A stretch of 64,000 nt of DNA from Escherichia coli phage NG_A1, in the sequence record LC788705.1; one strand, given 5' to 3'. The position numbers were made by a program, and so were the translations under genes. Of this stretch, positions 14,689-45,565 are shown in pieces (position 1 is the first letter of the stretch; the number at the start of each line of letters is the position of its first letter). The notes under the pieces are model-generated. The model was given only the letters and a program-made list of their open reading frames with translations, did no database searches and was not told the origin of the DNA.

Positions 14689-15456
14689 TTATTCAGCAGC
14701 CGCAGCTTTTGCATCCAGTTTAGCACGCTTAGCGGCACCATCATAGTCCTTAGCAACCAGACCACGACGAGACAGCATAGATTTAACACCGCGCTCAGAC
14801 TTACCAGTTTTCTCAGCGATCTCAGCAACAGTCATGTTAACCAGATCCAGACCTTCTAACAGATCTTCACGAGTTTTAGCACTTGAGGTTTCCTGTACCG
14901 GCATAGCAGCGATACGACCTTCACGAAGCAGGCTCAGAGCTTTACCGCGGATCTGCTTAATATTACGACCGAAGTGAGCAGCGATAGCTTCAATAGTAGC
15001 ACCAGCAACAACCTGATTAACAAAATCAGTTTCTTCATCTGGAGTGAAGGAACGAACAGCAGCAGCTTTTTCGGTTGGCTTAACAGAAGCGGTCATTTCC
15101 AGACTCAGAATCTTACCCTGTACCTGCTTAGCACCGAACTGACCACCAGCCACAGCAGCAGCGATTTCAGCATAGGTATACTGACCAGCATGAGCGTTCA
15201 GGAAATCAACCAGTTCAGCTTCCTGCTCAGGAGTCCACGGGGATTTCTGTACTTCGTTAGCTTTCTGTACTTCAAAACCTTCTTTACGCAGTTTAGAGCC
15301 AACAGAGCGAGCGGTAACATCTTTGCCAGTTTCAGCGGCCAGTTCAGCAGCGATAGCAGCTACTTGTTCTTGAGAGATTACAGCAACACCCAGAGCAGTG
15401 GCTTTTGCTTTCAGAGACTCGGTTACACCTTCTACGTTCCAGTTCAGTTTAGACAT
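14689..15456 (-). CDS. Ala-rich putative DNA-binding protein (possibly T5 D5-like)
   Basis: 255 aa, low complexity, E. coli-like high-expression codon usage. Confidence 0.4.
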   Translation of the reverse strand: MSKLNWNVEGVTESLKAKATALGVAVISQEQVAAIAAELAAETGKDVTARSVGSKLRKEGFEVQKANEVQKSPWTPEQEAELVDFLNAHAGQYTYAEIAAAVAGGQFGAKQVQGKILSLEMTASVKPTEKAAAVRSFTPDEETDFVNQVVAGATIEAIAAHFGRNIKQIRGKALSLLREGRIAAMPVQETSSAKTREDLLEGLDLVNMTVAEIAEKTGKSERGVKSMLSRRGLVAKDYDGAAKRAKLDAKAAAAE

Positions 15457-16222
15457 TATTATTTTTCTCCAATAGTTCTTTAATCGACAGGATTTCTATC
15501 CCATTCGTTTCGGCTTTCTTATAAGATGAGGAAGAACGTTTTGATTCATCCTCACAGATTAGGTATTTGACGTCTTTGGTAACGGATTTCTTAACCGTGT
15601 ATCCTAGACCTTCTAAGTAGTTTGTTGCATCCGTTCGATTTGCAAAATCTTGCAAAGATCCGGTAATACATACCGCGATTCCATTTGGCTGGGCAACTAA
15701 ATCATCAGTAACGACGGTTTTAGCTTTAGCACCAGTTGAGAATTTCCACGGTAATTCGATAACATCCTTGCCTTGTGGGGAATTTAGCCAGGCTTTATAA
15801 TTTTCTCCAGCCTTGCCGTCAGCCTTCACATCATGGAAGCTAGTGCAATTTTGGGATAATTTCTTTGCTGCAACCTCTCCAATTAGAGGGATTCCTAAAG
15901 AACCGAGAACTGAACCAAAGTCAATGTCTCCGCGAACTTTAGTATTTAATTCGCTAATTAACTTAGCGGCAACCTTGCTACCCACGGCTCTAACCAAATC
16001 TTCTTCGGTTAGGTAAAAGAGTTCTGAAATCTTCGTCAGCTCCAGCTTCTCAATAGTTTTCGGGCCAAAGCCCTTTAACTTCATTTTTGAACAGAAGTTC
16101 TCAATTAACTTACTTGATTGCGCTGGACAGTTGGACTTATTCCGACAGAATAATTGTCCGTTGACAAGATCTAGCTTAGAACCACAAGAGGGACATTGTG
16201 TTGGAATTTCGATTTTCATCAA
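15449..16222 (-). CDS. NAD-dependent DNA ligase, C-terminal half (Zn finger, HhH, BRCT)
   Basis: 257 aa; CPSCGSKLDLVNGQLFCRNKSNCPAQ zinc finger, HhH region, BRCT-like tail. Confidence 0.85.
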   Translation of the reverse strand: MMKIEIPTQCPSCGSKLDLVNGQLFCRNKSNCPAQSSKLIENFCSKMKLKGFGPKTIEKLELTKISELFYLTEEDLVRAVGSKVAAKLISELNTKVRGDIDFGSVLGSLGIPLIGEVAAKKLSQNCTSFHDVKADGKAGENYKAWLNSPQGKDVIELPWKFSTGAKAKTVVTDDLVAQPNGIAVCITGSLQDFANRTDATNYLEGLGYTVKKSVTKDVKYLICEDESKRSSSSYKKAETNGIEILSIKELLEKNNNV

Positions 16223-16249
16223 ATTTCTTCCTTATCAATTTATATAAAT

Positions 16250-16278
16250 ATTATAGCAAGTATTTAAGCATTTAGCAA
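16250..16278 (-). promoter_or_regulatory. Early-type promoter inside the ligase spacer, driving the C-terminal ligase ORF
   Basis: rc reads TTGCTAaatgcttaaatacttgcTATAATatttatataaattgataagg. Confidence 0.65.
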
Positions 16279-16421
16279 CTACAATTTTAACTAACTTTGC
16301 TTACCCTCGCCATAACTTTCTATCCCTCAACTGAATGATAATAGTATATACCTAAGCGGCGAAAATGTCAATAACCACTTTATAATTCCGATATGGTAGA
16401 TGGGTAGCAAAGGGTTATGTA

Positions 16422-17393
16422 TTAATCGTATACTCGCTCTACTATGCACGGGATTACACCACCAGCACGAATCACTCGAATTTGGCAACCGATCTCTAGA
16501 TCAAGAGAGTTAATATAATCAACGTTATTAAGAGTCGCTTTAACAATTGTAGCATCATCAATAATTACCGGTTCGAAATAACCAACTGGAGTTACTTTAC
16601 CAGAAGCCCCTACCTGCCATTCAACTTTAGTAAGAGTTGTAATCTCACCTTCTTCATCCTCTTTAATAGCGAATGCTCCACGAGGGAATTTATTAGTCCA
16701 GCCTTCTCGGAAGAACTTGTTGTTGTCGTTAATACGAACAACTTTACCGTCCGTCGGAATCCATTTAAAGAAGGAACGCACATTAACAACTGTTAAGAAG
16801 TTCTCATTCTCTAGCCAAAGCATATCTTTTAAATACGCTTCTGTAATACCTACAGATTCAGCAGAACACTGGATACCATATGCAACGAAGATTAAACCAC
16901 CTTCCCCGATACGTTGTACAAAATCATCACTATCTTTGAGGTTAATAGCACCAGAGGCAAAGTTACGTTTATTTTCTACTTCTTTTGTAATTAGAACTTC
17001 ACCAGTGATTTGAGTAGGTACTTTTTGGGAAATCTTTTTAGGGATGTTCAGCAATCTTACGTTGCTTGTGACATCATTCCCTAGAATACCATTACCACGA
17101 GTTAGTGCTTGAACAAATTCGCCATTAATATATAACAGAGAAATCGCACAACCATCTAACTTATCAGTTTCTACTTGACCTAACGGGTTAAATGGGGGTT
17201 TATCTCCACGATTATAATAAACTTTCTGTAAAGAATACATACGATACAGATGTGGAATATCACCCTTAGGTCCGATCTCTTCTTCTAACGGGAAGCGTTT
17301 TACCAGGCAATCATACTCCTCATCTGAGATTAAAGACATACCTTGATAATATGCTTCTTGGCAACGTTTAATAAAGTCTTTTACATTGGTCAT
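16422..17393 (-). CDS. NAD-dependent DNA ligase, N-terminal adenylation/OB half
   Basis: 323 aa; KxDG adenylation motif (TDKLDGCAISL), LigA Ia-like N-terminus. Confidence 0.85.
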   Translation of the reverse strand: MTNVKDFIKRCQEAYYQGMSLISDEEYDCLVKRFPLEEEIGPKGDIPHLYRMYSLQKVYYNRGDKPPFNPLGQVETDKLDGCAISLLYINGEFVQALTRGNGILGNDVTSNVRLLNIPKKISQKVPTQITGEVLITKEVENKRNFASGAINLKDSDDFVQRIGEGGLIFVAYGIQCSAESVGITEAYLKDMLWLENENFLTVVNVRSFFKWIPTDGKVVRINDNNKFFREGWTNKFPRGAFAIKEDEEGEITTLTKVEWQVGASGKVTPVGYFEPVIIDDATIVKATLNNVDYINSLDLEIGCQIRVIRAGGVIPCIVERVYD

Positions 17394-19975: not shown

Positions 19976-20434
19976 TTAATTTGGATAGAGTTCGGACTTA
20001 AAATTAGCCCTAACTTTTTTAGCCTCTTCTATAGTATTGCACTGCTGGTACTTACGAATAGACCCTTTCTGCATTAGCACACAGTATTTATCGCCCCTCA
20101 TGTAGATATTAGGCTCGCCCAACTTATTGTCTTTACGTACATTAATATTGTGCATTTGCTTAGATCTATTGGAGTCTTCTAAATTCTCTATAAAGTTGCA
20201 ATCTTTAATCCTGTTTTTGTGGTCTATCTCTTCTGGTATATACCCCTTATGATATAAGAATACCAGCTGATGCTCTCCCCAGTGCCTACGCTTAAACCCT
20301 ATTCTTATATACCCTTTATGTTTACCCCCGGCAAACTTACCTACTAGACTCTTCTGTCTTGTTTTCTTCCATTTAAGATGGCCTGTTTCAGGATCATACT
20401 CAAAAGCCTCCCTAACCTCTTCCTGTGTTATCAT
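19976..20434 (-). CDS. HNH homing endonuclease
   Basis: 152 aa; HQLVFLYHKGYIPEEIDHKNRIKDCNFIENL. Confidence 0.7.
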   Translation of the reverse strand: MITQEEVREAFEYDPETGHLKWKKTRQKSLVGKFAGGKHKGYIRIGFKRRHWGEHQLVFLYHKGYIPEEIDHKNRIKDCNFIENLEDSNRSKQMHNINVRKDNKLGEPNIYMRGDKYCVLMQKGSIRKYQQCNTIEEAKKVRANFKSELYPN

Positions 20435-23964: not shown

Positions 23965-24055
23965 GTAAAATTTTCCGGATGGTGCTATCATTGGTCTTGA
24001 GTACGGATAAAACCGAGCCAAAATGACTCGGTAATCAGAGTTCAGCTAATAAAAA

Positions 24056-24448
24056 TCATTCATCATTTAAGCCTGGAACATAAATCCCAACACGGTTTAA
24101 TTGTTCTTTAGCTTCTTTGAGAATATCTGGAGTGTACTCCCAAATATCATCTTCCACCTGTAAAAGATGGGGCGAACAACCATCATCCGACACACGACAT
24201 ATGGCCAAACCACGTGGGTGGAACAAAGAGAAATTTAGGGCAACAATTAAACCCATAGCAGACAACTCATTCCAATCCAACTCCCATTCCCCCGCGTAGC
24301 CGGATAGGAAAACACCAACACAGGGATCATCTATTTGCTGCTCCGGAAAAGTGAAGGAGGCTTGTCTTACCCCCAACCAACGTTGCAGCAGCTTCTCCCC
24401 ACGTTTCACCAAACTAGGATCAATCTGACGCCAATATACTTGTTCCAT
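24056..24448 (-). CDS. Hypothetical protein, paralog of 24458..24886
   Basis: 130 aa; shares ...GW.ELD.MGL..ALN..LF.P...PG... with its neighbour. Confidence 0.5.
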   Translation of the reverse strand: MEQVYWRQIDPSLVKRGEKLLQRWLGVRQASFTFPEQQIDDPCVGVFLSGYAGEWELDWNELSAMGLIVALNFSLFHPRGLAICRVSDDGCSPHLLQVEDDIWEYTPDILKEAKEQLNRVGIYVPGLNDE

Positions 24449-24457
24449 TCTGCCTCC

Positions 24458-24886
24458 TTAAGCAGTTAAACCTGGGATCATATACCCGAAACGTCGAAGT
24501 TTCTGAATCCCCTCATTTACTTCTTCCGGTGAGTAAGACCAACCATAACGTTCATTAACCTGAAAACCAGGAGATTCACTAGTTTTATAGTTAACAACAA
24601 GGCGATGCTTAGCAGGCATAAACAGCTTATAATTTAACGCAAAAACTAAGCCCATTTCGTCTAACTCTTTCCAGCCCACAATCTCTTCAAGACCCTCCTC
24701 TACCTGCACAATTAAACCAATACAGGGAGCCTCATCAATATCATCTTTAAAAGCAAAGGAGATTTCGTTATTCTCACACCATATTTTCAAAGAGTTAATA
24801 GCCTCATTATACAGGCTAGCTGGGAGAGTACGCCAAAAGTTAGCCAAAATTGGGTTAGCTTTTTTAGAGAATACATTATTGAACAT
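24458..24886 (-). CDS. Hypothetical protein, paralog of 24056..24448
   Basis: 142 aa. Confidence 0.5.
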   Translation of the reverse strand: MFNNVFSKKANPILANFWRTLPASLYNEAINSLKIWCENNEISFAFKDDIDEAPCIGLIVQVEEGLEEIVGWKELDEMGLVFALNYKLFMPAKHRLVVNYKTSESPGFQVNERYGWSYSPEEVNEGIQKLRRFGYMIPGLTA

Positions 24887-24888
24887 AT

Positions 24889-25395
24889 TTACACCTTAAA
24901 TTGTTGCAAGGATTTACACATTTCAAGATCTGGGCTAAATTCTAGCATATAGCTAACAGCTTTTAAATCTTGAAGATTTATCCCAGTCCTACCATTGACT
25001 ATAACCGTTGGATACTGGTACATCATAGCACCAGCGTCATCCAGAACACACCAATGTTTGAGCTTATGCTTTTCAACGAAGCGAAGAACAGAATTACCCC
25101 TAGATAATCCACCCCCAGTAAAATCCGTTGTACCAAGAAAACGATCGATAAGACCTAATCCGGTCATAATCTGAACGTTCTCCATCTCATTCCTGACAGA
25201 GAACCATGAGGATACTCCAACAATCATTATCGGAGAAGGACGAATAAAGTCCTGAAAAGCCTTGAGAAGCGGTTTGAAAACCCAATCACTTCCAAAGAAA
25301 ATCTTTTCGTCATCAGGTGCATGATGGTGGGAGATGCTCGAATTGAGCACCCCATCAATATCTAGAAAAATAATTGGAGTATTACTTATTTCCAT
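24889..25395 (-). CDS. HAD-superfamily phosphatase-like protein
   Basis: 168 aa; motif I IIFLDIDGVLNS. Confidence 0.55.
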   Translation of the reverse strand: MEISNTPIIFLDIDGVLNSSISHHHAPDDEKIFFGSDWVFKPLLKAFQDFIRPSPIMIVGVSSWFSVRNEMENVQIMTGLGLIDRFLGTTDFTGGGLSRGNSVLRFVEKHKLKHWCVLDDAGAMMYQYPTVIVNGRTGINLQDLKAVSYMLEFSPDLEMCKSLQQFKV

Positions 25396-25591
25396 TTTTG
25401 TTCCTTTCTAAGAACCTATCATACTCAACCGTATCAACATATATAACACCATAGTCATCGGATTTATAGTCCATCTCCCACAGCTCACAGCGATAGCACC
25501 AACTACCATCCGCCCATACAAATATATCATCGGGGTGTGTATACACAGATTTAACTATGGACATACCTGTTTCCCTTGCTTCTCGACACAT
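25382..25591 (-). CDS. Hypothetical small protein
   Basis: 69-aa ORF. Confidence 0.35.
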   Translation of the reverse strand: MCREARETGMSIVKSVYTHPDDIFVWADGSWCYRCELWEMDYKSDDYGVIYVDTVEYDRFLERNKNGNK

Positions 25592-26387
25592 AAGGTCTAC
25601 CCTCTAAATGAGCTTCTACACGAGCAATAAAATCAGGATCACTAAAAGCATCTACCGCACCTTTACTCCAGTAAGGGACACCACGTTCTTCCAGCTGGTA
25701 CATCTCACTACGAGTCATACCTTGATAGCCCGGTTCCGCCGCGAGGGCACTATCATAGTAGTTAACTACCATAAATTTCGCAGCAGTCCTATTAAGAACA
25801 GGAAATAATTCCCAGTAGAAGTTAATTACTTGGTTAGAGCAACCAACCACAATGATCATATCTTGACTGGTAATACCATCAAAAACATTATACATTTCTG
25901 CGTATGCAGGAGCATGCTCTCCAAAGAAGATTACATTAGGTTTAACCCATTTATAATCATCTGGATCAATAGAATTGTATCCTACATCAATAATCCGTTT
26001 ATTGCTACTATTGTAGCTATCAGCTACAACAACCTCTTTTAAATATCCGTGAATATGCAGAATGTCACTATGTGGAACGCCAGCACGCTCAATAAGGTCA
26101 TCAACGTTGGTAGTCAAGTTTACTACTTGACCTGGATATTGTTTATACCATTCACCAATACGCAAATGCGCAAGATTGGGTTCAACAGTTTTTAGCTCTT
26201 CACGACGCTTGTTGTAAAACATATGGGTTTTATGATAAAAATTACCACGAAAGGCATGAATATTACATACTTCTTCTAGATCATAGTCATCCCACAATGC
26301 TTTACCACTAGCAGTATCAGTACGGAAGGCTCGTACACCACTTTCAACACTCAAACCCGCACCACTAATAATAATTAATCTACGCAT
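25551..26387 (-). CDS. Sir2 (sirtuin)-like NAD-dependent protein, no obvious Zn module
   Basis: 278 aa; GAGLSVESGVRAFR, TTNVDDLIERAG, HIHG, NVIFFGE motifs. Confidence 0.65.
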   Translation of the reverse strand: MRRLIIISGAGLSVESGVRAFRTDTASGKALWDDYDLEEVCNIHAFRGNFYHKTHMFYNKRREELKTVEPNLAHLRIGEWYKQYPGQVVNLTTNVDDLIERAGVPHSDILHIHGYLKEVVVADSYNSSNKRIIDVGYNSIDPDDYKWVKPNVIFFGEHAPAYAEMYNVFDGITSQDMIIVVGCSNQVINFYWELFPVLNRTAAKFMVVNYYDSALAAEPGYQGMTRSEMYQLEERGVPYWSKGAVDAFSDPDFIARVEAHLEGRPYVSRSKGNRYVHS

Positions 26388-26601
26388 TTTTCACCTGTTC
26401 TCTGAAGTTTTGCCCAATACTGTCTAATAGCTCAGCTAATTCTTTATTGCCTTTCTCCATTAAGGTATTAGCAATAACTTCTAGCATAGTAGCGCAGGAT
26501 TCAACACCATCCTTATAGCCAGTTTCCCAGTGCTGCATTAATGCGTTTTCCAAAGCGGCGTTTAAACCCTTATCTGGTAGCATCGGCTTCGAGAATGCCA
26601 T
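26380..26601 (-). CDS. Hypothetical protein
   Basis: 73-aa ORF. Confidence 0.4.
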   Translation of the reverse strand: MAFSKPMLPDKGLNAALENALMQHWETGYKDGVESCATMLEVIANTLMEKGNKELAELLDSIGQNFREQVKNA

Positions 26602-26794
26602 AAAGTTTCTCCTCTAGTTCCATAACACGATTTTCATAAGAGGCACGCAACTTTTCAATTGCCAGCGCACGCACTGTAACCTCATTAGAATTAATAGCTA
26701 ACTGGGCCAGATCTTCTGTTTCCATACGTCCATTGTAAATTAAGCGATATTTAAGATGTTTTACATTCTTAGTCATTATTAAACTCCACTGCAA
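26570..26794 (-). CDS. Hypothetical protein
   Basis: 74-aa ORF, start uncertain. Confidence 0.35.
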   Translation of the reverse strand: MQWSLIMTKNVKHLKYRLIYNGRMETEDLAQLAINSNEVTVRALAIEKLRASYENRVMELEEKLYGILEADATR

Positions 26795-27149
26795 CTGTTT
26801 CTAGGTCTTCATCAGAAAAATTAGAGTATACATCTTTAAGATATTGTTTAATGCCTTCAGTAATATCTTCGTATCCCTCAGGACTACGTTGGTATACTTT
26901 TAGTACTCTATTATAAACAAATTCAATATCATACTTTATTTCACCCTCATCCTCTTCAAACAAGCAATCTGAGTTATACGGTGATACATCTAGATTTGTT
27001 TCTACCCAATCACCAATAATTGATGAATATCCAATACCCTCTAGATGGGAATAATCTCCAGTAGATGCAAAAATAGCTTCTCTAAGATCGTCTACGCCAA
27101 GATGGAAACCACCACATGTAGACTCAACTATATAGGGCTTTAATTCCAT
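26769..27149 (-). CDS. Highly acidic hypothetical protein (first gene after an early promoter)
   Basis: 126 aa, rich in D/E and aromatics. Confidence 0.5.
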   Translation of the reverse strand: MELKPYIVESTCGGFHLGVDDLREAIFASTGDYSHLEGIGYSSIIGDWVETNLDVSPYNSDCLFEEDEGEIKYDIEFVYNRVLKVYQRSPEGYEDITEGIKQYLKDVYSNFSDEDLETVAVEFNND

Positions 27150-27177
27150 ATCTTTCTCCTCTCAAATTTATAAATCT

Positions 27178-27206
27178 ATTATATATAAATTTTTGGCTGA
27201 AAGCAA
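27178..27206 (-). promoter_or_regulatory. Early-type promoter
   Basis: rc reads TTGCTTtcagccaaaaatttataTATAATagatttataaatttgagaggag. Confidence 0.65.
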
Positions 27207-27248
27207 ATAAAATAAAAGCCAGGTCGACTAGCAACCCGGCTGATTAGC

Positions 27249-36250: not shown

Positions 36251-36634
36251 ATGAGTAAAGAAATTGAATTAGAACAAGCCCTTCTGAATTACTCCAATTA
36301 CTTGCAGGGTGATAAAGAAACTATTACTAAGGAACAGGTATTACTAATACTAGACTCTATCACTTCTAAATTCAGGACTTTAGAAGACTACTACTCTGTA
36401 GGCAATGGAGATGAGAAGATAGAGTTATGTCTAAATCTCCTAGAAGATATGGGCTGGAATGTGGAAGATCAAGTAGGATATTTAGGTATATCTACAGAAA
36501 TTCTAGAAAATACAGAGCATGAAAATATACTTGAAGTAAAGAGCAGAAGTGCTATTCGGTATAATACTTATGGTACAGGTATTACAGGAATAAAAGCATT
36601 ACTTAGTATAGATATAGGATGGTTAGATGAATAA
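36251..36634 (+). CDS. Hypothetical protein
   Basis: 127-aa ORF. Confidence 0.5.
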   Translation: MSKEIELEQALLNYSNYLQGDKETITKEQVLLILDSITSKFRTLEDYYSVGNGDEKIELCLNLLEDMGWNVEDQVGYLGISTEILENTEHENILEVKSRSAIRYNTYGTGITGIKALLSIDIGWLDE

Positions 36635-37175
36635 AAAGTTACCTAGCCAAGAAAGATTAAAAGAATTATTAATCTATGATCCAGATACCGGTATATTTAC
36701 TAATAAGGTAAGTCGTGGTAGGGGAGGAAAAGCAGGTTCACCCGCTGGATACCTAAGAAAAGATGGCTATATAACTATTAAGATAGATAAAATAGATTAT
36801 TTAGCACATAGACTAGCCTTTCTATACATGACAGGATCAATACCAGATTTAATAGACCACAAAAATAGGATTAGGTCAGATAATAGGTGGATAAACCTAA
36901 GAGAAGCTACAAGCCAGTCTAATAATAGAAACTGTACCGCATCGAGTAAATCTGGATATCTAGGTGTACACTGGAACAAACAACTACAGAAATGGCAAGT
37001 ACAGGTGATTGATAATAAGGGTAAAAATATTTATGGGGGTGTTTTTGACTACTTAGACCTAGAAAGTGCGGTCATAAAGGCTAATGAACTGAGAAAAACA
37101 CTTCATGGTAGCGAAGCAGTTATAGAAGATTTCTATACTAACTATTACCCACCAGTAGAGGAACTTAATAAGTGA
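36627..37175 (+). CDS. HNH homing endonuclease (HNH + AP2-like domain)
   Basis: 182 aa; HRLAFLYM...IDHKNRIRSDNRWINLR, SGYLGVHW; paralog of 12616..13137. Confidence 0.75.
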   Translation: MNKKLPSQERLKELLIYDPDTGIFTNKVSRGRGGKAGSPAGYLRKDGYITIKIDKIDYLAHRLAFLYMTGSIPDLIDHKNRIRSDNRWINLREATSQSNNRNCTASSKSGYLGVHWNKQLQKWQVQVIDNKGKNIYGGVFDYLDLESAVIKANELRKTLHGSEAVIEDFYTNYYPPVEELNK

Positions 37176-37648: not shown

Positions 37649-37669
37649 TAAATAAATTAAAAAATTTTC

Positions 37670-37698
37670 TTGCTTAAAGCCCTCTAATTTAGTATAAT
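37670..37698 (+). promoter_or_regulatory. Early-type promoter; spacer complementary to the downstream RBS
   Basis: TTGCTTaaagccctctaatttagTATAAT; aaagccctc (37676-84) is rc of gagggcttt (37717-25). Confidence 0.6.
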
Positions 37699-37725
37699 AT
37701 TCGTATTGAAAGTGAGGAGGGCTTT

Positions 37726-38004
37726 ATGAGAATTTATAACTCAAATTCATTAGGATTTAAACCGTTGAGAAAACGTGCACAATCACCTCGTCAAATAAGA
37801 AAGGCTAATATTGGTGAGCCAGAAACACGTCTTCCACCTCCTCCGGAACAGCGTTTAGTTTATCTGGATGAAGAATTAGCTGAACGCGAAAGAAAAGCTC
37901 AAGAAGAGATTGAGCGTAAGAAAATGTGTACTGCTCCAGCGTATAATAAAGGAGCATATCAATATGTTTCCGATGCAGAACAAGCCAAGATGGTTGGTAG
38001 ATAA
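37726..38004 (+). CDS. Hypothetical protein
   Basis: 92-aa ORF. Confidence 0.4.
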   Translation: MRIYNSNSLGFKPLRKRAQSPRQIRKANIGEPETRLPPPPEQRLVYLDEELAERERKAQEEIERKKMCTAPAYNKGAYQYVSDAEQAKMVGR

Positions 38005-38020
38005 TTTTTAAAAAATTCAT

Positions 38021-38049
38021 TTGCTAAACGCTTCAAATTCTCGTATAAT
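38021..38049 (+). promoter_or_regulatory. Early-type promoter
   Basis: TTGCTAaacgcttcaaattctcgTATAAT. Confidence 0.65.
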
Positions 38050-38087
38050 ATACTTCATAAATTGATAAACAAAAAGGAAAATAAATA

Positions 38088-38603
38088 ATGGCTAAGCAGA
38101 AAAACGCAAAAACTCAAGCAGCCCCGGCAGTTAAAACTTTCCCTCAGACTGAGGCTAACCGCAAAGCTCGTCTGGAACGCCACCTGCGCAAGCACCCTAC
38201 TGATGCTCAAGCTGCACAGGCACTGAATCGTCCGGCTCCGATTCGTCAAAAGCCGAAGGCTAAGAATGCCACTCGTTCTGTAGCCCGCCTTGTGACCTAT
38301 GTACAGGGTTATGGTCACAAATCTGTTCCAGTAGCACTGAGTTTCAATGCTGGAGCAGAATTGTTCCCTCGTAATGGCATGTCCATGAAAGATTACGAGA
38401 AAGCAGTTAACCAGAAACGCAAACCAACGGCAGATGTATTGCGTGATACTCGTGGACAGTTTGGTTCTGTTAAGCCAAATATCTTTGGCGTAGAGTATAG
38501 TAAAGATAATGTTCGTGCTCTGTGTTACGGTGTAGGTATTAAGTTCACGGGTGATTCTGCTCGTAAATCTGCTAAACCAGCTCATAAGCGTAAAGCGAAG
38601 TAA
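38088..38603 (+). CDS. Highly basic hypothetical protein (putative nucleic-acid-binding)
   Basis: 171 aa, K/R-rich at both termini; E. coli-like high-expression codon usage. Confidence 0.5.
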   Translation: MAKQKNAKTQAAPAVKTFPQTEANRKARLERHLRKHPTDAQAAQALNRPAPIRQKPKAKNATRSVARLVTYVQGYGHKSVPVALSFNAGAELFPRNGMSMKDYEKAVNQKRKPTADVLRDTRGQFGSVKPNIFGVEYSKDNVRALCYGVGIKFTGDSARKSAKPAHKRKAK

Positions 38604-38610
38604 TAGATAA

Positions 38611-38635
38611 ATAGGGGCGAGAGCCCCTACAATCT
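38611..38635 (+). terminator. GC-rich hairpin (weak terminator or RNA-stability element)
   Basis: aggggc-gaga-gcccct, no clear U-tract. Confidence 0.35.
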
Positions 38636-38667
38636 ACTGATTCTCTAACTAATCAAGGATATTTTTT

Positions 38668-39189: not shown

Positions 39190-39891
39190 ATGAAAGTAAA
39201 ACCATTTGGTATGCTAGATATTGAATCTCTGGGAACTCCAGGAGATTGTGGTACTACTCATATCGCAATGCCTTCTTTCGCTTTTGTGGCTATGCATGGA
39301 ATTGATAAAGACCCTGATCTAATATTTGTTACTTTGGATGTACAAGATCAGCTTAATTCTGGTGCCAAAGTTACAGCATCTACTCTAGCATTCTGGATGG
39401 ATCAAGCTAAAAATAGCCCGTCTGCTATCCACATTATGGAAGCTATGAAGGAACGTAATCCAAAACTGATTGCCTTCCAAAATGGTAAACATCATTGCAC
39501 TAATAAATTAGGCTCAAACTATGCTGCCTTCTCTATGGCTCAAAATATTATGGAGTTGGCTCTAGGCGAAAATGCTTTGTATTACGGCAATGGCCCAGAG
39601 TTTGATATGACTATCTACTCTGCAAACACGTTCCATGCTGGAACCAATGAAGAGGTAGTTCCGTGGAAATTCTGGAATTTAGGCAATGTTCGATCTCTTC
39701 GTAATCTCTGGATGCAAGCTGGTTATAGTTACAAAGATCTAGAGGCTGAAGGTATTAGCTGGGCAATAGCTAAAATGGAGAAGATGGACACTATTCGTTA
39801 TGGGATCTATCCGGCTAAGCACGACCCAGCATTTGATGCCTTAGTTGAGAGCTATTGTGTTGCAGCTATGATCGAAAAAATGAAAATTTGA
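39190..39891 (+). CDS. DEDD-family (DnaQ-like) 3'-5' exonuclease-like protein
   Basis: 233 aa; Exo I-like LDIESLG and Exo III-like HDPAFDA. Confidence 0.45.
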   Translation: MKVKPFGMLDIESLGTPGDCGTTHIAMPSFAFVAMHGIDKDPDLIFVTLDVQDQLNSGAKVTASTLAFWMDQAKNSPSAIHIMEAMKERNPKLIAFQNGKHHCTNKLGSNYAAFSMAQNIMELALGENALYYGNGPEFDMTIYSANTFHAGTNEEVVPWKFWNLGNVRSLRNLWMQAGYSYKDLEAEGISWAIAKMEKMDTIRYGIYPAKHDPAFDALVESYCVAAMIEKMKI

Positions 39892-41278: not shown

Positions 41279-41596
41279 ATGACTTTTCATATTTTGATTG
41301 ATGATGTGCGTAATCTTCATGGAATGGACATTATCATTCGAACCCCAGAAGCCGCTGTCGAGTTTCTGAATAAAACTGATACCACAGGCCACTTTGTTTA
41401 TATGGATAATGACTTGGCTGTAGATGGTATGGAAGGTTATCAAATTCTTCGTTTACTCTTAGAATTTGGGCAGAGACCAAAGAAAGTGGTACTAGTAACC
41501 TCGAATCCCGTAGCTAAGCAAACTATGCGTAATGATTTGCTTGACTTAGGGTATAAAGAAAATCCCAATCGTGTCGAATATGATTGGCAGGAGTAA
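41279..41596 (+). CDS. Small protein with receiver (CheY-like REC) domain-like pattern
   Basis: 105 aa; HILIDD...VYMDNDL.VDGMEGYQILRLL...VVLVTSN. Confidence 0.35.
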   Translation: MTFHILIDDVRNLHGMDIIIRTPEAAVEFLNKTDTTGHFVYMDNDLAVDGMEGYQILRLLLEFGQRPKKVVLVTSNPVAKQTMRNDLLDLGYKENPNRVEYDWQE

Positions 41597-42119: not shown

Positions 42120-42290
42120 ATGAAATCAGTTGTAATTATTGGTGTTAATACTCGCGGTATTCGTACTACGAAAACTGTTAAAACTTCCAACGTTGCTGAG
42201 ATCACTACGAACCCTAAAAAGTTTGATTTCGCCAAAGTCTCAGCAGTTATGACAGAACAATCTTTTAACCAAGCGTTAGGAATGAAATAA
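42120..42290 (+). CDS. Small hypothetical protein (56 aa)
   Basis: ATG 42120 after GAGGGGAAG; below track cut-off. Confidence 0.3.
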   Translation: MKSVVIIGVNTRGIRTTKTVKTSNVAEITTNPKKFDFAKVSAVMTEQSFNQALGMK

Positions 42291-42733
42291 TGGAAGAGGA
42301 TATTTTAGATGTTTTGCGTAGAGCTTTGCAGGATTCTAAGTTTAATGGTTCTGATAAAGAAGTCGCTAAAAGCTATCAGACCATAATCGGGGATCTTCAG
42401 CGTATTAATAAAGATTTCATCACTTCTGAACAATTTGTGTCTTATCTCAAAGCTCAACTAAAAAGCATTAACCAGATGAAAGCTAAACTTCATGGTCAAG
42501 ATCTTGATAGTTATAGCTTGCAGTCCGCTCAGTATGAATACATTCTAAATAAGTGGTTGCAGGAGTATCTGCCCTCTCAGTTATCTGATACTGAGATTCG
42601 TAAATACTTTGCAGAATTAGTTAAGCTAAACCCTGGAATTACAAAAGGTATGCTGATGAAAGCGATCAAGGAAGAATTTCCTGGGCGTTATGATGGTGGT
42701 ACTGCTGCTCAGATTGCTGGCGAATTTAATTAA
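42290..42733 (+). CDS. GatB/YqeY-domain protein
   Basis: 147 aa; LQEYLPSQLSDTEI...GMLMKAIKEEFPGRYDGGTAAQIAGEF matches YqeY/GatB C-terminal domain pattern. Confidence 0.65.
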   Translation: MEEDILDVLRRALQDSKFNGSDKEVAKSYQTIIGDLQRINKDFITSEQFVSYLKAQLKSINQMKAKLHGQDLDSYSLQSAQYEYILNKWLQEYLPSQLSDTEIRKYFAELVKLNPGITKGMLMKAIKEEFPGRYDGGTAAQIAGEFN

Positions 42734-43080: not shown

Positions 43081-43589
43081 AGAACTGGATAACTGATGCT
43101 TTTAATGTAAAAGCTTCCGAGGTTAGTTGCGCACTGCCTAAACCACGCGGTAGTTGGTTCCAGACTAACCAACCAGTCTGCTGAATAGTTTTATTACGAT
43201 TTAACTATGTCCAGGCTAAAGAAGAACTTTAGAAGGTATTCTAGGATAGTGAAGTTCTTTCTCCATATCGGAGTAGTTTTTCAAGCTATCCACAAAGTGG
43301 GAAATGCTGACATGAGAGATGTCACTAATGGTGCACAATAGCACAGGTAATTCGCGATAACTCCTGTTGAGTAGCAGCAAAAGGTGGGAAGTCATGACCC
43401 CAAGCCTAACCGAGTCCTCAATATACCGCAGGACATAACTACTAAGTCACCCTGACTTAAACTGGAAAATAATAGACGTTACTGTATTTTGTCTTGAAAT
43501 ACTTAATGAGTGAGACTTATGACTCTCCCGGTATCGTCTGTATTTTTAAGAGTTTTTACGAGAGTTCTTAAAAATACTTAAACGGGGTG

Positions 43590-43657
43590 TAGTCTAAGGG
43601 AGAGGCAGGAGTCTTCTAAATTCCTTTATGCAGGTTCGAATCCCTTGTCACGCACCA
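43590..43657 (+). ncRNA. tRNA-like element ending in CCA
   Basis: ggttcgaatcc T-loop at 43633-43643 and ...cgcaCCA 3' end; stems imperfect. Confidence 0.25.
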
Positions 43658-43689
43658 AATTTGATGGTCAGAGTAAATTAAACCTACTA

Positions 43690-43733
43690 TCTCGGTTGAG
43701 CTGTTTTAATGGGTTCGAATCCCAGCGAGGCGT
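43690..43733 (+). ncRNA. tRNA-like minihelix (T-arm plus short acceptor-like stem)
   Basis: ctcg...tggg-ttcgaat-ccca-g-cgag. Confidence 0.2.
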
Positions 43734-43782
43734 AACTGCCTGGTGTGATAGAGGCATCATTCCACTAACATTGGAAAAACTA

Positions 43783-44013
43783 ATGAAACGAAAATTAAAA
43801 AAGTCTTATATAATTAAGATAAATAAGCTACGAAGTAGGGCAAAAGGATGGCCACTTCGAATATTAATTGCGGATAACCATACTAGATACCATGCGGAAC
43901 AACGTCATTACAAACAGTGGGAGTCATACTGCCGCTCAAAAGCAGGTCGTTTAGATGGATCTTATGAGTTTCTATTTGGTAAAAAGCCTACTAGAGTAGC
44001 TTTAGGTAATTAA
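43783..44013 (+). CDS. Small basic hypothetical protein in the tRNA region
   Basis: ORF from ATG 43783 (track ORF 43645..44013 begins inside tRNA-like sequence). Confidence 0.3.
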   Translation: MKRKLKKSYIIKINKLRSRAKGWPLRILIADNHTRYHAEQRHYKQWESYCRSKAGRLDGSYEFLFGKKPTRVALGN

Positions 44014-44018
44014 TACTT

Positions 44019-44109
44019 GGAAGAGCAAATCGAATTGGCGACGAAAACCGCTTGGAAAGTGGCTGACTGGTAAAACGGCTTGAGAGTTCAAATCTCTCCT
44101 CTTCCGCCA
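44019..44109 (+). tRNA. Type II tRNA, probably tRNA-Ser (anticodon GGA tentative)
   Basis: 7-bp acceptor ggaagag/ctcttcc, discriminator G, CCA; T-arm gagag-ttcaaat-ctctc; 91 nt with long variable arm. Confidence 0.5.
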
Positions 44110-44121
44110 AACAATTTATAT

Positions 44122-44216
44122 GGTAGGTCAATCCAACGGCTGGCGCTGGACTCCGACTTGAAATCGGTTGATCGTAGTGATACGGTGTAAGGGTTCGATC
44201 CCCTTACCTACCTCCA
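44122..44216 (+). tRNA. tRNA-Ser (UGA), type II
   Basis: Acceptor ggtaggt/acctacc, CCA; anticodon loop cTTGAaa on stem ccga/tcgg; T-arm aaggg-ttcgatc-ccctt. Confidence 0.55.
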
Positions 44217-44221
44217 AATCT

Positions 44222-44352
44222 TGGAATATGCCGGAATTGGTAGACGGGACTGCCGAATAGGTTTACTAGGAACATCCACTCCTAGAAATATACCTTAAAA
44301 GCGGTTGAGTTAAATGGTCTAACTCATGAAGGTTCAAGCCCTTCTATTCCTT
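44222..44352 (+). ncRNA. Atypical tRNA-like element, about 131 nt
   Basis: Leu/Tyr-type D-arm ccggaattggtagacgg, T-arm gaagg-ttcaagc-ccttc, acceptor-like tggaata/tattcct, but about 80 nt between D- and T-arms. Confidence 0.3.
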
Positions 44353-44581
44353 GATACATCAATGGCTCAAAGTGTAACGGTGCTATTTGATGCTCTTGGA
44401 AAGACTTTCCCGACATGCGTTCGGGGGTAAGCTTCTGAGGCTAGAATAGAAGAGTTTCTGAGAGCCGCCACAATTGAAAATTCGTACTCGTCTTGAGCTG
44501 CATGCAATAGGAGATAACTTGATTAGTATTCTAGAACATGCTAATTGAGGATGGTTTCGCTAACCCTGCGAGTTTTCAATT

Positions 44582-44659
44582 GTGGCTATATCATAATTGG
44601 TTAATGATCCTGATTGTGAATCAGGCCTATGTGGATTCGAATTCCACTAGCCACCCCCA
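44582..44659 (+). tRNA. tRNA-His (GUG)
   Basis: Acceptor gtggcta/tagccac, D-stem tcat/atga, anticodon loop ttGTGaa on stem cctga/tcagg, T-arm gtgga-ttcgaat-tccac, 3' CCCCA. Confidence 0.65.
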
Positions 44660-44684
44660 AATTAACTTAAATAGGAAATAAAAT

Positions 44685-44879
44685 ATGGCTGATTTCTGCA
44701 AACAATGCTCCATTGATATGTGGGGCAGAGATACTGGTGATCTTTCTGGGCTGATTACAGAAGCCGAAGTCAAAGAAGGTTATGGTGCAGTTGTGGTTTG
44801 TGAAGGATGCGGAGTCATTCGAGTAGATCATGAGGGTAAGCGCCTTGAAGAACCTGAGCCAGTTACCCTATTTCCCTAA
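44685..44879 (+). CDS. Small Cys-rich (zinc-ribbon-like) protein
   Basis: 64 aa; CKQC...CEGCG. Confidence 0.4.
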   Translation: MADFCKQCSIDMWGRDTGDLSGLITEAEVKEGYGAVVVCEGCGVIRVDHEGKRLEEPEPVTLFP

Positions 44880-44892
44880 AGTAAAGAATTAT

Positions 44893-44968
44893 TGGGATGT
44901 AGATCAATTGGCAGATCGTCGGCCTCTGACTCCGAAGGTTCCACGTTCGATCCGTGGCATCCCAGCCA
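44893..44968 (+). tRNA. tRNA-Gln (CUG)
   Basis: Acceptor tgggatg/catccca (U1:A72), D-stem gatc/gatc, anticodon loop ctCTGac, T-arm ccacg-ttcgatc-cgtgg, G+CCA. Confidence 0.7.
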
Positions 44969-44974
44969 AATACT

Positions 44975-45050
44975 TGGAGAGTAGTGTAACGGTTAGCACA
45001 ACGGCCTTTGACTCCGTTAATGGTAGGTTCGATTCCTCCTTCTCCAGCCA
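44975..45050 (+). tRNA. tRNA-Gln (UUG)
   Basis: Acceptor tggagag/ttctcca (U1:A72), anticodon loop ctTTGac, T-loop ttcgatt, G+CCA. Confidence 0.7.
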
Positions 45051-45057
45051 AATTAAT

Positions 45058-45132
45058 GCGTGATTAGTTCAGTGGCTAGAATAACTGGCTTCCAACCAGT
45101 AGACACGAGTTCGACTCTCGTATCCCGCACCA
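45058..45132 (+). tRNA. tRNA-Gly (UCC)
   Basis: Acceptor gcgtgat/atcccgc (one mismatch), anticodon stem actgg/ccagt with loop ctTCCaa, T-arm acgag-ttcgact-ctcgt, A+CCA. Confidence 0.7.
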
Positions 45133-45146
45133 AATAAGGAAACACT

Positions 45147-45398
45147 ATGCACGTTTTTGAGTTTCGTAATAAAAGTACTGATAAGCGAGTTATCATTATT
45201 GGAGAAACATATCGAGCATATGAACAAACTGATGGCTCTGTTATCTTGAATGATGAGAAAGGAGGTTTTAGCTTTTATCCAGAAGAACCTTATGAAGAGT
45301 TTCGAAAACAATTTAACCTAGACTGGAGAAAGCATTTAAACACTGTTGCTTCATCTGTAGTATTGCCAACTACCAGTACTGTACTCTCTAATGGCTGA
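45147..45398 (+). CDS. Hypothetical protein
   Basis: 83-aa ORF after AAGGAAA. Confidence 0.4.
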   Translation: MHVFEFRNKSTDKRVIIIGETYRAYEQTDGSVILNDEKGGFSFYPEEPYEEFRKQFNLDWRKHLNTVASSVVLPTTSTVLSNG

Positions 45399-45555
45399 CA
45401 ACCTAAAAGTAAAGATTGATAAACAAAAGAAACGTGTAGAAGTAGAGATTGGTGAAGAACGTGTTGCCTTTACTTTTGAATTTCTACAGCAAATGGCAAT
45501 GGCAGTTATGACTGATAAGTCTCCTGTTATTGAAAAAGAAATCCCGTTGAAATAA
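45391..45555 (+). CDS. Small hypothetical protein (54 aa)
   Basis: ATG 45391 overlapping previous ORF end; hairpin 45541-45565 follows. Confidence 0.3.
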   Translation: MADNLKVKIDKQKKRVEVEIGEERVAFTFEFLQQMAMAVMTDKSPVIEKEIPLK

Positions 45556-45565
45556 CGGGATCATC

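What the first reader, a model, noticed from the sequence alone, without database searches (positions are those of the whole stretch)
24889..26387. Sir2-like protein next to a HAD-family phosphatase in the early region
The Sir2-like ORF has the NAD-binding motifs (GAGxS, TQNxD-like, HG, FGE) but no obvious zinc ribbon, and it is followed by a small HAD-like phosphatase. Phage-encoded NAD-consuming or NAD-modifying enzymes can reprogram host metabolism or counter NAD-depleting defence systems. Their function here is not evident from sequence.
Basis: partly seen in the sequence, partly recalled or inferred. Interest (0 to 1): 0.45.

Follow-up and report, generated by a model that had tools for sequence, protein, structure and literature searches.

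The report
T5-type phage sirtuin plus HAD phosphatase
This is the well-known Sir2-like gene of T5-type phages (T5.102) and its neighbouring small HAD phosphatase (T5.105), a pair already predicted in 2022 to use NAD+ for RNA-end repair. It is real and conserved, and no experimental test of it turned up in the paper searches.

Summary
On the minus strand, 25551-26387 encodes a 278-aa Sir2-family protein and 24889-25395 a 168-aa HAD phosphatase of Pfam family HAD_SAK_2. The window is a Tequintavirus, 97% identical to Escherichia phage EC148, and the genes are orthologues of T5.102 and T5.105.

The sirtuin has every catalytic and NAD-binding residue and the class III Tyr-x-x-Arg motif. Its TQNxD motif reads TTNVD, and it has no zinc-binding cysteines although the small beta-sheet is still predicted. 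Its best structural match is E. coli CobB. It does not match defence-type SIR2 models.

The pair is not new. Iyer et al. 2022 (Viruses 14:1977) described this sirtuin plus Swiss-army-knife HAD neighbourhood in Tequintavirus SP15. They predicted a Tpt1/KptA-like, NAD-dependent removal of RNA 2'-phosphates.

I confirmed two of their three gene contexts. I add that the closest non-T5 HAD relatives I looked up sit either next to the sirtuin in the opposite gene order or in front of the NARP1 NAD+-rebuilding operon. That points to an ADP-ribose phosphate as the HAD substrate.

I found no experimental study. A plain CobB-like protein deacylase remains a serious rival.

The parts
25551..26387 (-). 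Sir2-family protein, 278 aa, orthologue of T5.102. It belongs to a zinc-less 'TTNVDD' clade of class III-like sirtuins. The catalytic His113 codon is 26049-26051.
   Evidence: Pfam SIR2 8.2e-25. phrog_2162 8e-122. AlphaFold2 pLDDT 88, pTM 0.86. Foldseek best match E. coli CobB, E about 4e-17, TM 0.83. Invariant residues in 41 homologues.
25382..25591 (-). Small 69-aa ORF between Sir2 and HAD, overlapping both. It is a variable filler: relatives have none, one or two small ORFs here.
   Evidence: phrog_5116 1.6e-29. T5 has two small ORFs here, T5.103 and T5.104. Loci L013-L015 and L020 have none.
24889..25395 (-). HAD phosphatase, 168 aa, Pfam HAD_SAK_2, orthologue of T5.105, with no cap domain visible in the model. 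The nucleophile Asp12 and acid/base Asp14 codons are 25354-25362.
24458..24886 (-). DUF7415 protein a, 142 aa, orthologue of T5.106. Same operon; function unknown.
   Evidence: Pfam DUF7415 1e-35. Follows the HAD in all 28 T5-like loci that have the HAD.
24056..24448 (-). DUF7415 protein b, 130 aa, orthologue of T5.107 and paralogue of the previous gene. Last gene of the operon.
   Evidence: Pfam DUF7415 2.2e-29. Relatives of its C-terminal half lie between nrdG and nrdD in T4-like Klebsiella phages.
26380..27149 (-). Three small overlapping ORFs of unknown function (126, 74 and 73 aa) that open the operon upstream of Sir2. T5 annotates two genes here, T5.100 and T5.101.
   Evidence: phrog_11748, phrog_5236 and phrog_5827. 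ORF list.
27178..27241 (-). nrdD terminator hairpin (27241-27217) followed by a promoter-like site (TTGCTT, 17 nt, TATAAT; the -10 box is 27183-27178) and a ribosome-binding site. This is the start of the Sir2 operon.
   Evidence: Terminator scan. Sequence read. T5 annotates a terminator and a promoter at the same place.
24012..24032 (-). Terminator hairpin ACCGAG-(9 nt)-CTCGGT followed by TTTTAT. This is the end of the operon.
   Evidence: Sequence read. T5 annotates a rho-independent terminator after T5.107.
41279..41596 (+). cREC (cyclic-phosphate-processing receiver) domain protein, 105 aa. It lies 15 kb away and is a candidate third component, because it sits three genes upstream of the orthologous sirtuin in Mydovirus-type phages.
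   Evidence: Pfam cREC_REC 1.4e-14. Rnl1-cREC-AAA_33-small ORF-SIR2 operon in L005 and L006.

Best explanation
The genes form an NAD+/ADP-ribose phospho-transfer module inside one early operon (promoter at about 27180, terminator at about 24020, minus strand). Shown: the sirtuin is catalytically intact, the HAD is catalytically intact, and the two are kept together in two gene orders. Inferred: the sirtuin uses NAD+ the way Tpt1/KptA does. A phosphate oxygen, most likely a 2'-phosphate left on cleaved tRNA or mRNA, attacks C1'' of NAD+ and expels nicotinamide. His113 then helps the ribose 2''-OH attack the phosphate, releasing clean RNA and ADP-ribose 1'',2''-cyclic phosphate. This is the same two-step chemistry that sirtuins perform on an acyl-lysine carbonyl. 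Inferred: the cREC protein encoded 15 kb away opens the cyclic phosphate. The HAD then removes the remaining phosphate, either from ADP-ribose-1''-phosphate (my preferred substrate) or from an RNA 2'/3' end. This is the yeast Tpt1, Cpd1, Poa1p sequence carried out by unrelated folds. It would serve to rescue phage and host tRNAs cut by host anticodon nucleases and to clear the ADP-ribose by-product. The module is accessory, not essential.
For: 1. Intact enzymes. In 41 homologues of 54-86% identity to the window protein the invariant residues include GAGxS, F21, R22, Y58, R61, R62, T92-D97, H113, G114, F154, F155, E157, G182, S184 and N209. The Sir2 fold is confidently predicted, with pLDDT 88. 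The HAD motifs are invariant, and its fold has pLDDT 94.
2. The orthologous sirtuin (60% identity) sits in an operon of abutting or overlapping genes, Metallophos ... Rnl1-type RNA ligase, cREC, AAA_33 kinase, small ORF, SIR2, in Mydovirus-type phages (L005, L006). Fourteen of the 59 IMG/VR sirtuin loci carry part or all of this gene set; 11 carry the RNA ligase. A megaphage relative has an Rnl1 ligase two genes upstream (L065).
3. Sir2 and HAD are adjacent in 28 T5-like loci as Sir2-HAD. In four divergent Demerecviridae-like contigs the order is inverted, HAD-small ORF-Sir2, with the HAD 37-43% identical over 82-88% of the query (L070, L072, L074, L145). Linkage that survives rearrangement argues for a functional coupling.
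4. A phosphatase partner makes sense only if the sirtuin reaction involves a phosphate ester. Deacylation produces none.
5. The same HAD clade (37-43% identity) precedes the Prs-like plus NAPRTase-like pair, the Pfam signature of NARP1 (Adps-Namat), in four myovirus contigs. A Macro-domain ADPR-1''-P phosphatase is known to occupy that role in other NARP1 operons (bioRxiv 10.64898/2026.01.28.702374). ADP-ribose chemistry is what the two HAD contexts have in common.
6. The phage also encodes cREC and tRNAs.
7. The same RNA-repair prediction was reached independently by Iyer et al. 2022 (PMC9503650).
Against: No sirtuin has been shown to act on an RNA phosphate, so the whole argument rests on gene context. 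The window encodes no RNA ligase and no polynucleotide kinase (tblastn), so a T5-type phage would depend on host enzymes to seal RNA. The class III Tyr-x-x-Arg motif and every other canonical sirtuin motif checked apart from the Q93T change and the zinc cysteines are fully conserved, which is also what a plain desuccinylase or deacetylase would show. About ten phAPEC8-like loci have the sirtuin with no recognisable repair or NAD gene nearby. HAD_SAK_2 homologues also occur alone in T4-like phages. Three T5-like loci have the sirtuin without the HAD.
Confidence: 0.4

Rival explanations
1. The sirtuin is an ordinary CobB-like NAD+-dependent protein lysine deacylase (deacetylase or desuccinylase). 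It resets the acylation state of host or phage proteins early in infection, for example translation, replication or nucleotide-metabolism enzymes. The HAD phosphatase would then be an unrelated neighbour.
For: The best sequence and structure matches are E. coli CobB, Sir2Af1 and SIRT5. The class III Tyr58-x-x-Arg61 pair, which binds acidic acyl groups in SIRT5 and CobB (background knowledge), is invariant. H113, F21, R22, N94, D96 and FGE are all conserved. This is the function proposed for phage sirtuins in PMC5107563, whose authors also noted loss of the zinc site.
Against: It does not explain why a phosphatase stays linked to the gene in two different orders. It does not explain the RNA ligase-cREC-kinase operon in other phages. 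The four zinc ligands are lost and the TQN glutamine is replaced throughout the clade, which shows at least some divergence from canonical deacylases.
Confidence: 0.3
2. The pair is a counter-defence device aimed at NAD+-targeting immunity. The HAD dephosphorylates ADPR-1''-phosphate made by RES-type (aRES) NAD+ phosphorolysis, as the Macro-domain Adpp does. The sirtuin handles the ADP-ribose side, for example by base exchange with nicotinamide.
For: The HAD-Prs-like-NAPRTase-like operon in four myovirus contigs copies the architecture of NARP1-AP. T5-type phages are known to invest in NAD+ restoration (NARP3, PMC13464706).
Against: The window has no Adps or Namat, so ADP-ribose released by the HAD could not be rebuilt into NAD+ by this route. 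A sirtuin consumes NAD+ in net terms. There is no PADLOC match and no experimental link. The Macro and HAD folds are unrelated, so this rests on analogy alone.
Confidence: 0.15
3. The sirtuin is an NADase or ADP-ribosyltransferase toxin that the phage uses to shut down the host or exclude other phages, like defence SIR2 or SirTM enzymes.
For: Sir2 domains can act as NADases or ADP-ribosyltransferases (PMC9503650). The gene is in the early region.
Against: There is no match to any defence SIR2 model. There is no sensor domain and no Macro antitoxin nearby. The phage depends on NAD+ for its own split NAD-dependent DNA ligase. The nearest relatives are class III deacylases.
Confidence: 0.05

Closest known systems
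Phage sirtuin 'RNA-repair' neighbourhoods of Iyer, Burroughs, Anantharaman and Aravind 2022 (Viruses 14:1977, section 3.7.3), type 3, typified by Escherichia phage SP15
   Same: The same genus, Tequintavirus, and the same gene pair: a distinct-clade sirtuin plus a Swiss-army-knife HAD. This window is a member of that described set.
   Different: Nothing essential. I add the inverted-order variants, the HAD-NARP1 operons, and the point that the HAD may act on ADPR phosphate rather than on RNA.
E. coli CobB and the class III sirtuins (SIRT5, Sir2Af1)
   Same: Same fold, with TM 0.83 to CobB. Same catalytic His, GAGxS, FGE, GxS and Tyr-x-x-Arg.
   Different: Only 24-25% identity. The four zinc cysteines are absent, TQN is TTN, and there are clade-specific insertions. 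The genomic partners are phosphoesterases and RNA ligases.
Yeast tRNA-splicing clean-up pathway Tpt1, Cpd1 (2H family), Poa1p (Macro), and bacterial KptA
   Same: The proposed logic is the same: NAD+-dependent 2'-phosphate removal, opening of the cyclic phosphate, then dephosphorylation of ADPR-1''-P.
   Different: All three folds differ: Sir2 rather than Tpt1, cREC rather than 2H, HAD rather than Macro. The resemblance is functional and inferred, not homology.
NARP1-AP (Adps-Adpp-Namat), bioRxiv 10.64898/2026.01.28.702374
   Same: A small phosphatase gene attached to a Prs-like plus Nampt-like operon. Homologues of this window's HAD occupy that position in four contigs.
   Different: The published Adpp is a Macro-domain protein. 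This window has the HAD but no Adps or Namat.
T4 Pnkp and Rnl1 tRNA repair
   Same: The phosphatase domain of Pnkp is a HAD that heals RNA 3' ends (background knowledge). An Rnl1-type ligase is the sirtuin's neighbour in Mydovirus-type phages.
   Different: T4 needs no NAD+ and no sirtuin. The T5-type window lacks both ligase and kinase.

Membership tests
Sir2 family (Pfam PF02146) | Profile match above the curated cut-off | tested here: met
   88.2 bits against a cut-off of 24, E=8.2e-25, profile positions 1-178 of 180
Sir2 family (Pfam PF02146) | Rossmann domain plus small domain fold | tested here: met
   AlphaFold2 pLDDT 88, pTM 0.86. Foldseek: CobB E about 4e-17, TM 0.83; the 50 listed matches are all sirtuins
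Sir2 family (Pfam PF02146) | Catalytic His and NAD-binding motifs GAGxS, TQNxD, FGE, GxS | tested here: met
   H113, G9-S13, F155-E157 and G182-S184 are invariant. TQNxD is TTNVD, with N94 and D96 kept and Gln replaced by Thr
Sir2 family (Pfam PF02146) | Four-cysteine zinc site in the small domain | tested here: not met
   No Cys in residues 115-153, where CobB has four. The three beta strands of the module are still predicted, with 10-residue block pLDDT means of 89-98 across residues 111-160. Among the 150 representatives, 26 of 41 TTN proteins have no Cys there and 74 of 95 TQN proteins have four or more
Class III sirtuins (CobB/SIRT5 type) | Tyr-x-x-Arg acyl-carboxylate binding pair | tested here: met
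   Y58 and R61 are invariant in 41 homologues and align with the FYNARR segment of CobB
Class III sirtuins (CobB/SIRT5 type) | NAD-dependent lysine deacylase activity | not testable with these tools
   Needs an enzyme assay
Defence-associated SIR2 NADases (ThsA, DSR1/2, SIR2-HerA, SIR2-APAZ) | Match to defence SIR2 profiles, and a fused or adjacent sensor or partner (SLOG, HerA, pAgo, large C-terminal domain) | tested here: not met
   No PADLOC match at E up to 0.1. It is a single-domain 278-aa protein whose neighbours are small ORFs and a HAD
SirTM (Macro-linked ADP-ribosylating sirtuins) | Adjacent Macro-domain gene | tested here: not met
   No Macro domain was found in the eight operon ORFs scanned against Pfam
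Tpt1/KptA RNA 2'-phosphotransferases | Homology to the Tpt1 fold | tested here: not met
   The protein is a sirtuin. Only 'works like Tpt1' is proposed, not membership
Tpt1/KptA RNA 2'-phosphotransferases | NAD-dependent removal of an RNA 2'-phosphate with release of ADPR-1'',2''-cyclic phosphate | not testable with these tools
   Needs an enzyme assay
HAD superfamily, family HAD_SAK_2 (PF18143) | Profile match above the cut-off and the four HAD motifs | tested here: met
   73 bits against a cut-off of 27.5. D12xD14, S62/S63, R99 and D119-D120 are invariant in 15 homologues
HAD superfamily, family HAD_SAK_2 (PF18143) | HAD Rossmannoid fold | tested here: met
HAD superfamily, family HAD_SAK_2 (PF18143) | Fusion to RNA-repair domains, the 'Swiss army knife' architecture that gave the family its name | tested here: not met
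   The 120 best homologues carry the HAD_SAK_2 domain alone, and 117 of them are 102-200 aa. The RNA-repair label therefore rests on more distant family members
Sirtuin plus SAK-HAD neighbourhood (Iyer et al. 2022, type 3) | Distinct-clade phage sirtuin next to a HAD_SAK_2 gene in a Tequintavirus-type genome | tested here: met
NARP1-AP (Adps-Adpp-Namat) | Prs-like and Nampt-like genes adjacent to the phosphatase; the phosphatase is a Macro domain | tested here: not met
   The window has neither gene and the phosphatase is a HAD. HAD homologues elsewhere do sit in such operons

The most novel reading that the evidence does not exclude
The phage HAD_SAK_2 proteins are a second, non-Macro family of ADP-ribose-1''-phosphate (or ADPR cyclic-phosphate-derived) phosphatases. 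Next to Adps-Namat they would extend NARP1 against RES-type NAD+ phosphorolysis. Next to the zinc-less sirtuin they would clear the phosphorylated ADP-ribose made by a sirtuin that transfers ADP-ribose to a phosphate group. That would be the first sirtuin with a Tpt1-like activity on RNA.
Probability: 0.2. Interest if true: 0.65.

Novelty: already known. Interest (0 to 1): 0.33.

Why it matters
If the prediction holds, sirtuins would gain a new substrate class, a phosphate ester on RNA instead of an acyl-lysine. T5-type phages would then carry a compact NAD+-driven RNA-healing route that copies the eukaryotic Tpt1, Cpd1, Poa1p pathway with three unrelated folds. The link I found between this HAD clade and NARP1 operons also gives a directly testable candidate for a second kind of ADPR-1''-phosphate phosphatase in the NAD+ arms race between phages and bacteria. 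As it stands, the finding is a correct re-discovery of an annotated gene pair whose function has already been predicted.

Tried and rejected
1. Defence-type SIR2: no PADLOC match, so rejected.
2. Recent capture of host cobB: only 24-25% identity to CobB, and a large phage-only clade of 50-99% identity, so rejected.
3. VxP to VIN change after the GxS motif as a marker of altered peptide binding: this position varies (P, N or D) in both the TTN and TQN groups, so it is not diagnostic and I dropped it.
4. Sir2-HAD fusion proteins as a 'Rosetta stone': none seen. The 'Sir2' label on the HAD comes from PHROG 18062, which is the C-terminal half of the HAD.
5. RNA-repair domain fusions among HAD homologues: none in the best 120.
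6. Sir2 next to HAD homologues in T4-like Proteus and Aeromonas phages: absent.
7. Recognisable domains in the phAPEC8-like neighbours of the sirtuin: none.
8. Neighbours of 53 distant HAD loci: a few had an Rnl1/kinase/Metallophos cluster (3 loci), NAPRTase (2) or NADAR (1) within 5 kb; most showed nothing with my query set. This is too weak for statistics.
9. Experimental literature on phage sirtuins, or T5.102 in gene-fitness screens: nothing found.
10. Sequence search of the HAD against PDB chains: no match.
11. Isoelectric points of the operon proteins: all acidic or near neutral (pI 4.1-6.8), so they give no hint of RNA binding.
Full report
WHAT IS THERE

The window is a T5-type phage. 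The stretch 24000-27200 is 97% identical to Escherichia phage EC148 and matches 447 phage records, almost all from Salmonella or Escherichia phages. The records whose taxonomy I read are Tequintavirus, family Demerecviridae.

The finding's coordinates run exactly from the stop codon of a 168-aa ORF (24889-25395) to the start codon of a 278-aa ORF (25551-26387), both on the minus strand. The larger protein is a clear Sir2-family member (Pfam PF02146, E=8.2e-25). The smaller one belongs to Pfam HAD_SAK_2, 'HAD domain in Swiss Army Knife RNA repair proteins' (E=4e-20). A 69-aa ORF (25382-25591) overlaps both genes.

In phage T5 itself the genes are T5.102 (Sir2) and T5.105. They lie in one annotated transcription unit that starts at a promoter just after the nrdD terminator and ends at a terminator after T5.107. 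The window has the same signals:
- the nrdD terminator hairpin at 27241-27217;
- a TATAAT box at 27183-27178;
- a terminator hairpin at 24032-24012.

The unit therefore holds three small ORFs, Sir2, a small ORF, the HAD and two paralogous DUF7415 genes. All are tightly packed or overlapping.

THE SIRTUIN

In an alignment of 41 homologues (54-86% identical to the window protein) the invariant residues include all NAD-binding and catalytic positions. They also include Y58, R61 and R62, which align with the Tyr-x-x-Arg signature of class III sirtuins in CobB (FYNARR). The glutamine of the canonical TQNxD motif is replaced by threonine throughout the clade.

There is no cysteine between HG and FGE, where CobB has four. 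The AlphaFold2 model is confident (pLDDT 88, pTM 0.86) and still shows the three beta strands of the small module (strands 114-122, 131-134 and 147-152). The scaffold is kept without the metal ligands.

Foldseek against the PDB gives E. coli CobB first (E about 4e-17, TM 0.83 normalised to the target, 24-25% identity). Next come Sir2Af1 and SIRT5, all class III. No PADLOC defence model matches.

An exhaustive search of 1.84 billion representatives found 2973 relatives at E up to 0.001. Among the best 150:
- 41 carry TTN, and 26 of these have no cysteine in the zinc region;
- 95 carry TQN, and 74 of these have four or more cysteines there.

The window protein thus belongs to a distinct zinc-less branch next to zinc-containing class III-like proteins.

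THE HAD

The 120 best homologues carry this one domain alone, and 117 of them are 102-200 aa; those that carry a source name are nearly all from phages. The 'RNA repair' name of the family is therefore not something I could confirm from domain fusions.

Many GenBank records call this gene 'Sir2'. The reason is that PHROG 18062, labelled Sir2, is in fact the C-terminal half of this HAD.

WHAT IS ALREADY KNOWN

The Sir2-like gene of T5 has been noted since the genome paper, which PMC5107563 cites. That study also remarked that phage sirtuins lack the zinc site and proposed a deacetylase role.

[quoted passage not shown] SP15 is a Tequintavirus, so the window is a member of that described set.

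Their prediction is that the sirtuin acts like KptA/Tpt1 and removes RNA 2'-phosphates with NAD+. The associated phosphoesterases would prepare the RNA end or process the ADP-ribose cyclic phosphate that is released.

My searches found no experimental study of any phage sirtuin and no mention of T5.102 in the T5 gene-fitness screen.

TESTS OF THAT PREDICTION WITH INDEPENDENT DATA

I fetched 59 IMG/VR loci that encode relatives of the sirtuin and screened their flanks. They fall into these groups:
- 28 T5-like loci have Sir2, then zero to two small ORFs, then the HAD, then DUF7415.
- 3 T5-like loci have Sir2 and DUF7415 but no HAD.
- 14 loci, from myovirus-sized contigs or short fragments, carry part or all of the gene set seen in Klebsiella phage KpS8 (Metallophos, two small ORFs, Rnl1-type RNA ligase, cREC, AAA_33 kinase, small ORF, SIR2, ATP-dependent DNA ligase). 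Eleven of them have the RNA ligase. In KpS8 the genes abut or overlap.
- About 10 phAPEC8-like loci have no recognisable partner.

A 607-kb megaphage contig has a zinc-containing relative two genes downstream of an Rnl1 ligase. A 279-kb contig has one flanked by DUF4326 and a nucleoside deoxyribosyltransferase-like gene, with an RlaP 'RNA repair pathway' nucleotidyltransferase gene starting 2.3 kb downstream on the other strand.

The window itself encodes a cREC protein 15 kb away (41279-41596, Pfam 1.4e-14), a calcineurin-like phosphoesterase (55602-56420) and eight tRNAs. It encodes no RNA ligase, polynucleotide kinase, NADAR, Prs-like or NAPRTase-like gene.

NEW OBSERVATIONS ON THE HAD

I looked up the genomic context of nine of the window HAD's closest relatives outside Tequintavirus (37-43% identity over 82-100% of the query). 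They split into two contexts.

In four divergent Demerecviridae-like contigs, including Pantoea phage AAS21, the order is HAD, small ORF, SIR2. This is the reverse of the window. Adjacency that survives an inversion of order is better evidence of functional coupling than shared synteny.

In four myovirus contigs (three of about 150 kb, including Serratia phage ChuuTotoro, and one of 62 kb) the HAD opens an operon with a Prs-like gene (PF14572) and a NAPRTase gene (PF04095). That two-gene signature is NARP1 (Adps plus Namat), which rebuilds NAD+ from ADP-ribose and nicotinamide (bioRxiv 10.1101/2024.02.11.579819).

A 2026 preprint shows that some NARP1 operons carry a Macro-domain phosphatase, Adpp. 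It converts ADPR-1''-phosphate, made by RES-type defence, into ADP-ribose (10.64898/2026.01.28.702374). The HAD occupies the equivalent place.

What a sirtuin and NARP1 have in common is ADP-ribose chemistry, not RNA ends. For the sirtuin context I therefore favour ADPR-1''-phosphate, formed after the cyclic phosphate is opened, as the HAD substrate. This is the second of the two options Iyer et al. left open.

It also bears on the sirtuin. A phosphatase partner is hard to explain for a deacylase, whose product is O-acyl-ADP-ribose. It is natural if the sirtuin transfers ADP-ribose to a phosphate group.

MOST LIKELY MECHANISM

Inferred, confidence about 0.4:
1. NAD+ binds as in any sirtuin.
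2. A phosphate oxygen, most likely an RNA 2'-phosphate, attacks C1'' and nicotinamide leaves.
3. His113 activates the ribose 2''-OH to attack the phosphorus.
4. RNA with a free 2'-OH and ADPR-1'',2''-cyclic phosphate are released.
5. cREC opens the cyclic phosphate.
6. The HAD removes the remaining phosphate.

The steps that are shown: both enzymes are intact and conserved, they are co-transcribed, and the genomic links hold. The substrates are inferred.

RIVALS

The main rival (about 0.3) is a CobB-like protein deacylase. The intact class III motif and every other canonical sirtuin motif checked, apart from the Q93T change and the zinc cysteines, fit that equally well.

A counter-defence role against NAD+ phosphorolysis (about 0.15) is possible for the HAD. 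It is incomplete here because the window lacks Adps and Namat.

An NADase or toxin role (about 0.05) is unlikely.

IS THE MODULE ESSENTIAL?

The module looks dispensable. Shigella phage SHSML-45 lacks the sirtuin and the first 63 residues of the HAD. Three T5-like loci lack the HAD.

VERDICT

The pair is already known, both as an annotation and as a specific computational prediction, so novelty is low. What remains of interest is that the prediction is untested, that a sirtuin acting on RNA would be a new activity, and that the HAD-NARP1 link offers a concrete experiment.

Noticed in passing
L071 5001-8217; L073 6001-9519; L143 4001-7569; L144 4001-7222: HAD_SAK_2 homologues (37-43% identical to the window HAD) open an operon with a Prs-like gene (PF14572) and a NAPRTase gene (PF04095). 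That is the Pfam signature of NARP1 (Adps-Namat). It occurs in four myovirus contigs, including Serratia phage ChuuTotoro. The HAD sits where a Macro-domain ADPR-1''-P phosphatase sits in published NARP1-AP operons.
   Followed up: partly
L070 5001-6591; L072 4398-6040; L074 6001-7683; L145 4001-5610: In divergent Demerecviridae-like contigs, including Pantoea phage AAS21, the order is HAD, small ORF, Sir2. This is the reverse of the window, and no DUF7415 family is on record for the genes downstream.
   Followed up: partly
window 24889-25395; L001 3896-4402; L066 5589-6095: RefSeq and GenBank records label the HAD gene 'Sir2 (NAD-dependent deacetylase)', so many T5-like genomes appear to have two Sir2 genes. 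PHROG 18062 carries the Sir2 label but matches residues 77-168 of the HAD (E=6e-58). It matches the true sirtuin only weakly (E=5e-6).
   Followed up: yes
window 24056-24886: Two paralogous DUF7415 genes end the operon. They follow the sirtuin even in the T5-like loci that lack the HAD (L056, L058, L059). Relatives of the C-terminal half lie between nrdG and nrdD in T4-like Klebsiella phages, so the family may be tied to the anaerobic ribonucleotide reductase neighbourhood rather than to the sirtuin.
   Followed up: partly
L089 (Shigella phage SHSML-45, NC_031022): This is a natural deletion variant. The sirtuin is absent and only residues 64-168 of the HAD remain downstream of nrdD.
   Followed up: partly
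window 37650-38650; L069 26969-27418: The closest relative, EC148, encodes a NADAR-domain protein (Pfam 7e-22) two genes downstream of RNase H, just before a 171-aa ORF. The window has no NADAR gene there or anywhere else.
   Followed up: yes
window 39190-39891, 41279-41596, 42290-42733: Just upstream of the tRNA block are three genes: a Rv2179c-like 3'-5' exoribonuclease domain protein (E=3.6e-8), the cREC protein (E=1.4e-14), and a protein with a marginal YqeY-like match (E=9e-6, just below the Pfam cut-off). All could bear on RNA metabolism.
   Followed up: no
window 15449-17393: The NAD-dependent DNA ligase is split into two ORFs. ORF 16422-17393 has the adenylation and OB domains; ORF 15449-16222 has the HhH and BRCT domains. 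The phage therefore has its own need for NAD+.
   Followed up: no
window 43582-46269: ARAGORN finds only eight tRNA genes in the window. The syntenic regions of EC148 and vB_EcoD-Elw are annotated with about twenty or more, so the tRNA block is much shorter or differently arranged here.
   Followed up: no
window 19976-20434 and 36627-37175: Two HNH_3 endonuclease genes are inserted among the replication and nucleotide-metabolism genes. They are probably homing endonucleases.
   Followed up: no
L064 5721-7198 and 9000-9902: In a 279-kb phage contig, a zinc-containing relative of the sirtuin is flanked by a DUF4326 gene and a nucleoside 2-deoxyribosyltransferase-like gene. An RlaP ('RNA repair pathway' nucleotidyltransferase) gene starts 2.3 kb downstream on the other strand.
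   Followed up: no
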